From contig BK006947.3 of NCBI GenBank assembly GCA_000146045.2, positions 288,001 to 352,000 of the forward strand: DNA of 64,000 bases. The letters are read 5' to 3'. A program made the translations under genes and the position numbers. The notes below the pieces were generated by a model. It was given only the letters and a program-made list of their open reading frames with translations. It was not told where the DNA came from and did no database searches. This document shows, one piece after another, positions 43,321 through 63,383 of the stretch (its first letter is position 1; each line of letters opens with the position of its first letter). This stretch comes from TPA_inf: Saccharomyces. Lineage: Eukaryota.

Positions 43321-44154
43321 AATGGGTATGTTATAACCATAATTCCTAATGGTGAATAAAATCAGGACCAATAAAGAAAAGCTAATTTGATTTTTATTGT
43401 CAATGAAATTTCATAATCGTCATGAATGCATAAACAGACACACCTAGCAACTGTATAATCTGCGCCTAAAAAGGGCGTATACACAAAACTAAACGATGCG
43501 CAATAAAAGTTCAGCAGTCAGCAATGAAACCGAGATATGCAGCAACAGAGTATCATATGCATGGAGGATCCTTTCTGTTTTTCTGATAATATGCTCTGAA
43601 AAAGCTCCAAACAGCACAGTAGCCTATTTGTGAAGCTCAAAAAAGGCTTCTATTTCCCTCGCTATCTTCAGATTGTGCAGTGATATTCTTTGAGGAAGGA
43701 AACGTAGAGGGGATAAGTTGGATAACTGTTATTTCTTTTCAATATGCTAGATTTTGCTTACCACCTTACTGATTTTTTCTAATAATAAACTTTTTTACTA
43801 ACATTAGTACGATGTCTCATCTATTTCTTCTATTTAGTTAACGTTCCAAAGACCAGAAAGACCTACTGTAAGGGTAAGACCTGTCGTAAGCACACTCAAC
43901 ACAAGGTTACTCAATACAAAGCTGGTAAGGCTTCCTTGTTTGCCCAAGGTAAGAGACGTTATGACCGTAAACAATCTGGTTTCGGTGGTCAAACCAAGCC
44001 TGTTTTCCACAAGAAAGCTAAGACTACCAAGAAGGTTGTTTTGAGATTGGAATGTGTCAAATGTAAGACCAGAGCCCAATTGACCTTGAAGAGATGCAAG
44101 CACTTCGAATTGGGTGGTGAAAAGAAGCAAAAGGGTCAAGCTTTGCAATTCTGA
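43321..44154 (+). CDS. RPL42A: Ribosomal protein eL42 (L44e), 106 aa, spliced: exon 1 = 43321..43324 (ATG G), exon 2 = 43838..44154
   Basis: ATGG is followed directly by GTATGT at 43325. The branchpoint TACTAAC is at about 43796-43802, with the 3' ss TAG at 43835-43837. The joined frame encodes [15 protein letters not shown]...KGQALQF. Confidence 0.9.
43325..43837 (+). other. RPL42A: Spliceosomal intron of RPL42A (513 nt)
   Basis: GTATGT 5' ss, TACTAAC branchpoint and TAG 3' ss are all present. Confidence 0.85.
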
Positions 44155-61906: not shown

Positions 61907-62671
61907 TCAAATTTCATCATCGCTCTCCACGTCATCATGGACGTCTTCCACCTCGGCGGATTCTTCGTCTTTTGATAGAATTTCCACAGCCCGCGGACGC
62001 ACAAACGATCCGTGACCCGGCGCCACAGGCCCAAACAGTGTTACCCCATTTATGCGCCCATCGTTTTTGCCTGCGGCTTCCGGGAATTCCACACCGCACC
62101 ATGTGCCCATCACGTCCAACGGTAGTGGTCCTACGTACCGTAAAATGGCCTCACGTGGAGCGCTCCCGTCTACTGTGACACGACAGTGGCGGCCGATAGC
62201 CGCCGTTAATTGCTCTCGGGCATATGCTTCGTCCTGCTTTGCCAGCGCAGCGCGCTGGCTCTGCTGTGCAGCATTAAACCTACCATAGCCGTGAGCCATC
62301 TTCCATCGTAATACGGATTGATCCCTTCGCAAATAATCCTCCTCGCTAATTACTTCCATTGAGGGGATTCCTTCCGCTTGCGTGGCCAGCTGGTTAGAGA
62401 TTGATTGGGCATTAGAGTCTGTAACAACCACAATAAGCTCCTCCTCTCCTTTTAGGAAGTTGGCATCTTCATCCTCATTTGAATAGGCACCCCCCTTTTT
62501 AGTACTATATATCTCCTTGTTGTCGTACTGTCTTTTCACAACTATTTCCATATCCTCTGGTTCCACTCCGGTAACATGGTACAATCGGTCCTTGAACTGC
62601 CTTAATTTAAGCGAATTTGGTAATTCCTTTTCTGTACGGACCAATTCACTCTCTATGACAACTCTAACCAT
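61907..62671 (-). CDS. ALF1: Tubulin-folding cofactor B with CAP-Gly domain, 254 aa
   Basis: An N-terminal ubiquitin-like domain is followed by the C-terminal CAP-Gly motif GKNDGRINGVTLFG. Length is 254 aa. Confidence 0.85.
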   Translation of the reverse strand: MVRVVIESELVRTEKELPNSLKLRQFKDRLYHVTGVEPEDMEIVVKRQYDNKEIYSTKKGGAYSNEDEDANFLKGEEELIVVVTDSNAQSISNQLATQAEGIPSMEVISEEDYLRRDQSVLRWKMAHGYGRFNAAQQSQRAALAKQDEAYAREQLTAAIGRHCRVTVDGSAPREAILRYVGPLPLDVMGTWCGVEFPEAAGKNDGRINGVTLFGPVAPGHGSFVRPRAVEILSKDEESAEVEDVHDDVESDDEI

Positions 62672-62939: not shown

Positions 62940-63383
62940 ATGCATCAGCAACACTCCGTATGTTTCACTTCTTATTTTCTTCCGTGGCAATAACCTTCCT
63001 TTTGACTTATTTATACTAACATTATAATAACTATGTTTCCTTTTTGAACTAAGAAATCAGAGAACAAACCACAACAGCAAAGGAAAAAATTCGAAGGCCC
63101 TAAAAGAGAAGCTATTCTGGATTTAGCGAAGTATAAAGATTCTAAAATTCGCGTCAAATTAATGGGTGGTAAATTAGTTATAGGTGTCCTAAAAGGCTAT
63201 GATCAACTGATGAACTTGGTACTTGATGATACAGTAGAATATATGTCTAATCCTGATGATGAAAACAACACTGAACTGATTTCTAAAAACGCAAGAAAGC
63301 TAGGTTTGACCGTCATAAGAGGTACTATTTTGGTCTCTTTAAGTTCCGCCGAAGGTTCTGATGTACTATATATGCAAAAATAG
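62940..63383 (+). CDS. LSM7: Sm-like protein Lsm7, spliced: exon 1 = 62940..62957 (MHQQHS), exon 2 = 63054..63383; about 115 aa
   Basis: ATG CAT CAG CAA CAC TCC is followed by GTATGT at 62958. The branchpoint TACTAAC is at 63014-63020. Exon 2 is in frame only if splicing occurs after AAG at 63051-63053. The Sm fold GKLVIGVLKGYDQLMNLVLDD is present. Confidence 0.75.
62958..63053 (+). other. LSM7: Spliceosomal intron of LSM7 (96 nt) with an apparent AAG 3' splice site
   Basis: GTATGT and TACTAAC are present. No YAG lies between the branchpoint and the in-frame exon 2 start, and the first downstream CAG at 63058-63060 would frameshift. Confidence 0.6.

What the first reader, a model, noticed from the sequence alone, without database searches (positions are those of the whole stretch)
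62958..63053. LSM7 intron appears to use a non-canonical AAG 3' splice site
Exon 1 (ATG CAT CAG CAA CAC TCC) is followed by a perfect GTATGT, and the branchpoint TACTAAC is at 63014-63020. Between the branchpoint and the start of the Sm-domain frame (AAA TCA GAG AAC AAA...) there is no YAG, only ctAAG at 63051-63053. The first downstream CAG (63058-63060) would put exon 2 out of frame. The intact Lsm7 reading frame therefore requires an AAG acceptor, which is rare in yeast.
Basis: partly seen in the sequence, partly recalled or inferred. Interest (0 to 1): 0.5.

Follow-up and report, generated by a model that had tools for sequence, protein, structure and literature searches.

The report
Yeast LSM7 intron's known AAG acceptor
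The small intron at the start of the baker's-yeast LSM7 gene really does end in AAG instead of the usual CAG/TAG, but this is already in the standard gene annotation and confirmed by published RNA-seq junction reads, so it is a correct but ordinary finding.

Summary
Exon 1 is 62940-62957 (MHQQHS), GTATGT is at 62958-62963 and TACTAAC at 63014-63020. The first AG anywhere in the intron is AAG at 63051-63053, 34 nt after the branch A. Splicing there gives a 115-aa protein 100% identical to S. cerevisiae Lsm7 as deposited in 13 PDB entries.

Published RNA-seq (Kawashima et al. 2014, Table S5) lists YNL147W with normal sites GTATGT/AAG at chrXIV 350960-351055, which is exactly window 62958-63053. 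It reports 240 junction reads for AAG, 8 for the frameshifting CAG 7 nt downstream and 1 for a TTG.

An in-frame GAG (+9) and an in-frame CAG (+24) also exist. Neither appears among the junctions that table lists for the gene, and the codons between are conserved as coding.

AAG is the acceptor in the three other Saccharomyces species I checked (S. paradoxus, S. kudriavzevii, S. eubayanus). Six other Saccharomycetaceae genera have TAG or CAG at the same 5'-proximal intron.

AAG is a recognised minority acceptor in yeast; TFC3 and SEC17 are other annotated cases. Verdict: real, interpretation supported, already known, low interest.

The parts
62940..62957 (+). LSM7 (YNL147W) exon 1 coding part: ATG CAT CAG CAA CAC TCC = MHQQHS
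   Evidence: Matches residues 1-6 of PDB Lsm7.
62958..63053 (+). Spliceosomal intron, 96 nt, phase 0, containing in-frame stops
   Evidence: Equals chrXIV 350960-351055, listed as the normal junction with 240 reads in Kawashima 2014 Table S5.
62958..62963 (+). 5' splice site GTATGT (consensus)
63014..63020 (+). Branchpoint TACTAAC (consensus), branch A at 63019
   Evidence: Invariant in the alignment of three Saccharomyces species.
63036..63045 (+). Pyrimidine/U-rich tract TTTCCTTTTT just upstream of the acceptor
   Evidence: Read directly from the sequence. Its role is inferred from Roy et al. 2023, where strong poly(U) tracts accompany used non-YAG sites.
63051..63053 (+). 3' splice site AAG (non-YAG). 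It is the first AG in the intron, 34 nt after the branch A
   Evidence: RNA-seq junction reads; present in four Saccharomyces species.
63054..63383 (+). LSM7 exon 2 coding part (KSENKPQQQRKKF...YMQK plus stop). The LSM domain covers residues 29-102
63058..63060 (+). Minor alternative acceptor CAG at +7. It shifts the frame and gives a premature stop. About 3% of junction reads
   Evidence: frameshift. Kawashima 2014 Table S5 row *CAG XIV:351062 with 1/1/4/2 reads.

Best explanation
This is the single 5'-proximal spliceosomal intron of S. cerevisiae LSM7 (YNL147W, a subunit of the Lsm1-7 and Lsm2-8 rings). It has consensus 5' splice site and branchpoint sequences and a non-consensus AAG 3' splice site.

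Shown here:
- The AAG junction is the major one in vivo.
- It yields the canonical 115-aa Lsm7.

Inferred:
- AAG is chosen because it is the first AG of any kind downstream of the branchpoint.
- It lies at a favourable distance (34 nt), follows a U-rich tract and is followed by exonic adenosines (AAA).
- No YAG lies upstream to compete with it.
- AAG is the non-YAG triplet the yeast second-step active site tolerates best.
- The consensus CAG 7 nt further on is sampled only about 3% of the time and gives a frameshifted, prematurely terminated mRNA.

The AAG appears to be a derived state shared by the genus Saccharomyces. Other Saccharomycetaceae have YAG at the homologous intron.
For: - Sequence anatomy.
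- Protein identity: 100% over 115 aa to PDB Lsm7 and to LSM7_YEAST/S288C. Pfam LSM domain, E = 3.8e-19.
- Junction reads: 240 AAG, 8 CAG+7, 1 TTG (PMC3983031 Table S5). The coordinate offset was verified.
- No intron-less alternative: no in-frame ATG lies between the intron's last stop and M43, yet the RKKFEGPKREAILDLAKYKD segment upstream of M43 is conserved in all yeast orthologues.
- Conservation: AAG is the first AG after the branchpoint in S. paradoxus, S. kudriavzevii and S. eubayanus, 33 and 36 nt after the branch A in the latter two (S. paradoxus has two tandem TACTAAC copies, so its spacing was not computed). Conservation changes sharply at the AAG. The intron carries indels (88-102 nt long). 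From AAG onward there are only synonymous or K/R changes and no indels.
- Outgroups: six genera have TAG or CAG.
- Context from the literature: annotated AAG acceptors in TFC3 and SEC17. [quoted passage not shown] Poly(U) tracts and downstream exonic A favour non-YAG use (PMC10711555).
Against: - Nothing contradicts the AAG junction.
- The explanation of why AAG beats CAG+7 is inferred, not tested. In ECM33 (AAGCAG) the downstream CAG wins, and in TFC3 a CAG 17 nt downstream takes 27%. 'First AG wins' is therefore not a general rule, and the roughly 97:3 ratio here is not fully explained.
- A predicted hairpin that would hide CAG+7 is weak and not conserved.
- The PDB and UniProt sequences follow the annotation, so they are not fully independent of it. 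The RNA-seq reads are independent.
Confidence: 0.95

Rival explanations
1. The true acceptor is an in-frame downstream site, either CAG at 63075-63077 (giving MHQQHS-QRKKF...) or GAG at 63060-63062. On this reading the AAG junction is an annotation convention.
For: Both sites keep the reading frame. CAG+24 is a consensus YAG, lies 58 nt from the branch A, and is present in all four Saccharomyces species.
Against: No junction to either site appears in Kawashima Table S5 for YNL147W, against 240 reads for AAG. The 24 nt between AAG and CAG+24 evolve like coding sequence: synonymous or K/R changes only and no indels.
Confidence: 0.02
2. The conserved weak AAG plus the conserved out-of-frame CAG at +7 form a regulated productive/non-productive switch. 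Splicing to CAG+7 followed by NMD would tune Lsm7 levels, possibly as feedback from spliceosome or second-step factor status. This would resemble TFC3 or the APE2 thermosensor.
For: CAG+7 is used at a detectable level, 8 of 249 junction reads. It produces a premature stop. AAG and CAG+7 are both conserved in four species. LSM7 encodes a U6 snRNP subunit. TFC3 is a precedent, with an annotated AAG, a downstream CAG and a 27% NMD-targeted isoform.
Against: Usage is only about 3%. It is not measurably higher in NMD mutants: 1/48 in WT against 7/200 in upf strains, Fisher p = 1.0. Conservation of CAG+7 is explained by the Ser-Glu codons it sits in. No conserved RNA structure is evident around the two sites. 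LSM7 did not turn up in the two supplementary files of the Prp18 study that are held as text.
Confidence: 0.05
3. There is no functional intron. Lsm7 is translated from the internal ATG at 63162 (a 73-aa ORF), and the GTATGT/TACTAAC pair is coincidental.
For: A mechanical ORF of 73 aa starts at 63162.
Against: The conserved N-terminal part of the protein (RKKFEGPKREAILDLAKYKD, conserved in all orthologues) lies upstream of that ATG. The splice-signal pair is expected 0.06 times by chance. Junction reads show that splicing occurs. The intron is conserved in position across Saccharomycetaceae.
Confidence: 0.01

Closest known systems
SGD/UniProt gene model of S. cerevisiae LSM7 (YNL147W; LSM7_YEAST)
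   Same: Identical. The intron is the same 96 nt, the acceptor is the same AAG, and the 115-aa product is the same.
   Different: Nothing differs. The window is this locus, chrXIV at about 288003-352002.
Other S. cerevisiae introns annotated with an AAG acceptor, e.g. TFC3 (YAL001C) and SEC17 (YBL050W)
   Same: Consensus GTATGT 5' splice site, AAG as the main acceptor, and a YAG a short distance downstream that is used at a low level.
   Different: In TFC3 the downstream CAG (+17) takes about 27% of spliced product and is clearly NMD-sensitive. In LSM7 the CAG+7 takes about 3% with no measurable NMD effect.
APE2 / DMC1 type branchpoint-proximal cryptic AAG sites (Meyer et al. 2011, as cited in PMC11585973 and PMC12262433)
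   Same: An AAG lies closer to the branchpoint than a YAG, so the two compete.
   Different: In those genes the YAG is the main site and the AAG is masked by a stem-loop. In LSM7 the AAG is the main site and no significant or conserved structure is predicted.
LSM7 introns of other Saccharomycetaceae (Naumovozyma, Nakaseomyces, Zygosaccharomyces, Vanderwaltozyma, Lachancea, Kazachstania)
   Same: A single 5'-proximal phase-0 intron with GTATGT and a TACTAAC-like branchpoint (AACTAAC in Lachancea), in the same syntenic ALF1-LSM7 context.
   Different: Exon 1 is 4 codons rather than 6-7, and the acceptor is the canonical TAG or CAG.

Membership tests
S. cerevisiae spliceosomal (GT-AG, U2-type) intron | 5' splice site matching GTATGT | tested here: met
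   Exact GTATGT at 62958-62963.
S. cerevisiae spliceosomal (GT-AG, U2-type) intron | Branchpoint matching TACTAAC | tested here: met
   Exact TACTAAC at 63014-63020. The pairing with GTATGT is unique in the window, against 0.06 expected.
S. cerevisiae spliceosomal (GT-AG, U2-type) intron | 3' splice site YAG | tested here: not met
   The acceptor is AAG at 63051-63053. The AG dinucleotide is kept and only position -3 deviates. This is a recognised minority variant, not grounds for exclusion.
S. cerevisiae spliceosomal (GT-AG, U2-type) intron | Branchpoint-to-acceptor distance in the usable range (at least 10 nt, typically tens of nt) | tested here: met
   34 nt from the branch A to the G of AAG. 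The shortest natural distance of 10 nt is quoted in PMC10711555.
S. cerevisiae spliceosomal (GT-AG, U2-type) intron | Removal in vivo shown by exon-exon junction reads | tested here: met
   Taken from the literature, not from my own mapping. There are 240 junction reads for XIV:350960-351055 in Kawashima 2014 Table S5.
Lsm7 (Sm-like protein, LSM domain family PF01423) | LSM domain above the Pfam gathering score | tested here: met
   68.6 bits against a cutoff of 23.4, residues 29-102.
Lsm7 (Sm-like protein, LSM domain family PF01423) | Orthology or identity to characterised Lsm7 | tested here: met
   100% identity to PDB yeast Lsm7 chains. ALF1-LSM7 synteny is seen in all relatives examined.
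NMD-coupled non-productive alternative 3' splice site (TFC3-like) | The alternative acceptor is used in vivo and creates a premature stop | tested here: met
   CAG+7 has 8 junction reads and gives a frameshift with a stop.
NMD-coupled non-productive alternative 3' splice site (TFC3-like) | The alternative isoform is stabilised in NMD mutants and forms a sizeable fraction of product | tested here: inconclusive
   1/48 in WT against 7/200 in upf mutants, Fisher p = 1.0, about 3% overall. The counts are too low to decide.

The most novel reading that the evidence does not exclude
The Saccharomyces-specific change from YAG to AAG, together with the conserved out-of-frame CAG 7 nt downstream, might make LSM7 expression sensitive to second-step fidelity (Prp18, Prp22 or Prp8 status). 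That would give a small autoregulatory link between spliceosome state and the level of a U6 snRNP subunit.
Probability: 0.05. Interest if true: 0.45.

Novelty: already known. Interest (0 to 1): 0.1.

Why it matters
It matters little beyond confirming that the first-stage reader can correctly recognise a non-consensus acceptor from raw sequence. The AAG acceptor of LSM7 is part of the reference annotation and is visible in published RNA-seq tables.

There are two modest points of value. First, the comparative result suggests that AAG is a derived state held across the genus Saccharomyces, since six other genera keep YAG. Second, it is a practical warning: automatic gene callers can mis-model this gene because of the AAG, as the S. 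eubayanus GenBank model does.

Tried and rejected
1. RNA structure hiding the CAG+7. Constrained folding of the branchpoint-to-exon-2 region predicts a hairpin in S. cerevisiae, with the U-tract pairing with UCAGAGA. It leaves AAG in the loop (accessibility about 0.8-0.9) and CAG+7 in the stem (about 0.1-0.3). The hairpin is only -4.4 kcal/mol, with z = -0.8 against shuffles. The pattern is reversed in S. paradoxus and S. eubayanus. Rejected.

2. In-frame alternative acceptors (GAG+9, CAG+24). Rejected on junction reads and the coding-type conservation pattern.

3. Intron-less 73-aa ORF from ATG 63162. Rejected.

4. NMD sensitivity of the CAG+7 isoform. The counts are too small.

5. Literature searches for an explicit discussion of the LSM7 AAG site found no paper that discusses it in the text, only the supplementary table of PMC3983031. 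Spingola 1999 and Davis 2000 are not held in the library. The two supplementary files of the Prp18 paper that are held as text do not mention LSM7.

6. I did not obtain a genome-wide percentage of AAG acceptors from a held paper. In the two parts of Table S5 that I read, my hand count gives 3 of about 98 normal junctions as AAG. The figure of roughly 5% that I recall from Spingola et al. 1999 is from memory and unverified.

Full report
OBSERVATION

Reading the window and a script confirm every coordinate in the finding.
- ATG is at 62940 and exon 1 is ATGCATCAGCAACACTCC (62940-62957, MHQQHS).
- GTATGT is at 62958-62963.
- TACTAAC is at 63014-63020, with the branch A at 63019.
- AAG is at 63051-63053.
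- The Sm-domain frame starts at 63054 (AAA TCA GAG AAC AAA...).

The intron is 96 nt. The AAG's G is 34 nt from the branch A.

The CAG at 63058-63060 would start exon 2 at 63061. That is one base out of frame and gives a stop after 27 codons.

GTATGT followed 40-70 nt later by TACTAAC occurs once in the 64-kb window, against 0.06 expected from dinucleotide shuffles. TACTAAC alone is not enriched: 9 copies against 7.0 expected.

The claim that the frame 'requires' AAG is not strictly true. GAG at 63060-63062 (+9) and CAG at 63075-63077 (+24, 58 nt from the branch A) are both in frame. The sequence alone therefore does not settle the acceptor, and outside evidence is needed.

WHAT IT IS

Splicing 62957 to 63054 gives a 115-aa protein.
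- It is 100% identical, end to end, to 'U6 snRNA-associated Sm-like protein LSm7' of S. cerevisiae in 13 PDB entries, including 3jcm, 4c8q, 4c92 and 4m75.
- It is identical to the collection's LSM7_YEAST / S288C sequence, which is seen on 297 contigs.
- Pfam finds an LSM domain at residues 29-102 (68.6 bits, cutoff 23.4).

The upstream neighbour on the minus strand (61907-62671) is a 254-aa ORF. Its positional counterpart next to LSM7 in every relative examined carries a CAP-Gly domain, as expected for ALF1/YNL148C. The order in S. kudriavzevii and S. eubayanus is PGA2, a CAP-Gly gene, LSM7, a small ORF, then MFA2. The window is therefore S. cerevisiae chromosome XIV, and the gene is LSM7/YNL147W.

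DIRECT EVIDENCE FOR THE JUNCTION

Kawashima et al. 2014 (PLoS Genet, PMC3983031) list splice-junction read counts in Table S5 for wild type and for upf1, upf2 and upf3 deletion strains. YNL147W appears as follows.

| Site | chrXIV coordinates | Reads (WT / upf1 / upf2 / upf3) |
|---|---|---|
| Normal, GTATGT / AAG | 350960-351055 | 47 / 67 / 69 / 57 |
| Alternative *CAG | 3' end at 351062 | 1 / 1 / 4 / 2 |
| Alternative *TTG | 3' end at 351048 | 0 / 1 / 0 / 0 |

The offset between chromosome and window is 288002 at both intron ends. These are therefore window 62958-63053, 63060 and 63046. In total, 240 of 249 junction reads (96%) use AAG and about 3% use the frameshifting CAG+7. The table lists no junction using GAG+9 or CAG+24 for this gene.

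COMPARATIVE EVIDENCE

A homology search and contig look-ups gave the LSM7 locus from ten other yeast assemblies.

Within Saccharomyces, all three other species examined end the intron in AAG.
- S. paradoxus: ...ctttttaaacAAAG|AAATCAGAG
- S. kudriavzevii: ...attttgaacgAAG|AAATCAGAG
- S. eubayanus: ...ttttcaaatgAAG|AGATCAGAA

In each case the AAG is the first AG after the branchpoint. It lies 33 nt (S. kudriavzevii) and 36 nt (S. eubayanus) after the branch A. S. paradoxus has two tandem TACTAAC copies, so its spacing was not computed.

In the three-species alignment the intron is riddled with substitutions and indels (lengths 88, 96 and 102 nt). From the AAG onward there are no indels and only synonymous or K/R changes. 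That places the exon boundary at the AAG and argues against CAG+24.

Outside the genus, the homologous 5'-proximal phase-0 intron follows codon 4 rather than codon 6-7 and ends in a canonical acceptor.
- TAG: Naumovozyma dairenensis, Zygosaccharomyces rouxii, Kazachstania africana.
- CAG: Nakaseomyces glabratus, Vanderwaltozyma polyspora, Lachancea dasiensis.

On this sampling, AAG is a derived state shared by the genus Saccharomyces.

HOW IT MOST LIKELY WORKS

Shown: AAG is the main acceptor and CAG+7 is a minor, non-productive one.

Inferred: the second-step spliceosome docks the first AG it can reach beyond the minimal distance from the branchpoint. Several features favour the AAG here.
- It has no upstream competitor.
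- It sits 34 nt from the branch A.
- It follows a U-rich tract (TTTCCTTTTT, 63036-63045).
- It is followed by AAA in the exon.

Roy et al. 2023 (PMC10711555) report that used non-YAG sites have stronger poly(U) tracts and are enriched for A at exon positions +1 and +2. [quoted passage not shown]

What stays unexplained is the strength of the preference over a consensus CAG only 7 nt away. In ECM33 (AAGCAG) the CAG wins, and in TFC3 a CAG 17 nt downstream takes 27%.

I tested whether structure hides CAG+7. A hairpin is predicted in S. cerevisiae. It is weak (-4.4 kcal/mol, z = -0.8) and is not conserved in S. paradoxus or S. eubayanus. I reject it.

RIVAL READINGS

- In-frame CAG+24 or GAG+9: rejected on junction reads and the coding-type conservation pattern.
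- Intron-less 73-aa ORF from ATG 63162: rejected. The conserved RKKFEGPKREAILDLAKYKD segment lies upstream of that ATG, and splicing is observed.
- A regulated AAG/CAG+7 switch coupled to NMD, on the TFC3 model: not excluded but unsupported. The alternative is 1/48 reads in wild type against 7/200 in NMD mutants (Fisher p = 1.0). Conservation of CAG+7 is explained by the Ser-Glu codons it overlaps.

COMPARISON WITH WHAT IS KNOWN

This is the reference gene model itself. AAG acceptors are a recognised minority class in yeast. TFC3 (YAL001C) and SEC17 (YBL050W) are listed with normal AAG sites in the same table. By my hand count, 3 of about 98 normal junctions in the two table parts I read are AAG. 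My recollection of Spingola et al. 1999 is roughly 5% genome-wide. That paper is not held in the library, so the number is unverified.

VERDICT

The novelty rating is 'already known' and interest is low (0.1). The only residual speculative angle, a fidelity-sensitive AAG/CAG+7 pair in a spliceosome-component gene, has about 5% probability and would be of moderate interest at most.

Noticed in passing
L003 1501-2026 (S. eubayanus GCA_001298625.1, CM003579.1): The public 138-aa S. eubayanus 'LSM7-like' model (P0004) looks mis-annotated. It starts at an upstream ATG in another frame and splices GTATGT to the CAG at +7. This gives an unrelated 32-residue N-terminus (MCLIQHGERKSY...). The orthologous ATG AAC CAG CAA TAC TCC | GTATGT ... 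AAG | AGA TCA GAA model would give MNQQYS-RSENRPQQQ, matching its relatives. The gene caller appears to have avoided the AAG acceptor.
   Followed up: partly
window 63034-63383; protein P0003: An ENA metagenome gene call (P0003, 116 aa, MFPFWTKKSENK...) starts at the ATG inside the intron. It reads W where this window has the in-frame TGA at 63046-63048, so either that source has TGG there or a code that reads TGA as Trp was used. It looks like an intron-blind ORF call, not a real isoform.
   Followed up: no
L005-L010 versus window 62940-62957: Exon 1 is 4 codons (MSE+1) in six non-Saccharomyces genera, 6 codons in S. cerevisiae, S. kudriavzevii and S. eubayanus (MHQQHS / MNQQHS / MNQQYS), and 7 in S. 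paradoxus (MHQQQHS). The N-terminal mini-exon was remodelled in the same lineage that acquired the AAG acceptor.
   Followed up: partly
L011 1001-1116 (S. paradoxus): The S. paradoxus intron carries two tandem TACTAAC boxes (ttTACTAACattaTACTAACc) where S. cerevisiae has TACTAACattaTAATAAC. The second copy is degenerate in S. cerevisiae.
   Followed up: no
window 43326-43837 (+): Using the chrXIV offset of 288002, the RPL42A (YNL162W) intron listed in Kawashima Table S5 (XIV:331328-331839, GTATGT...TAG) falls here. The TACTAAC at 43796-43802 found fits as its branchpoint. It is an ordinary ribosomal-protein-gene intron.
   Followed up: no
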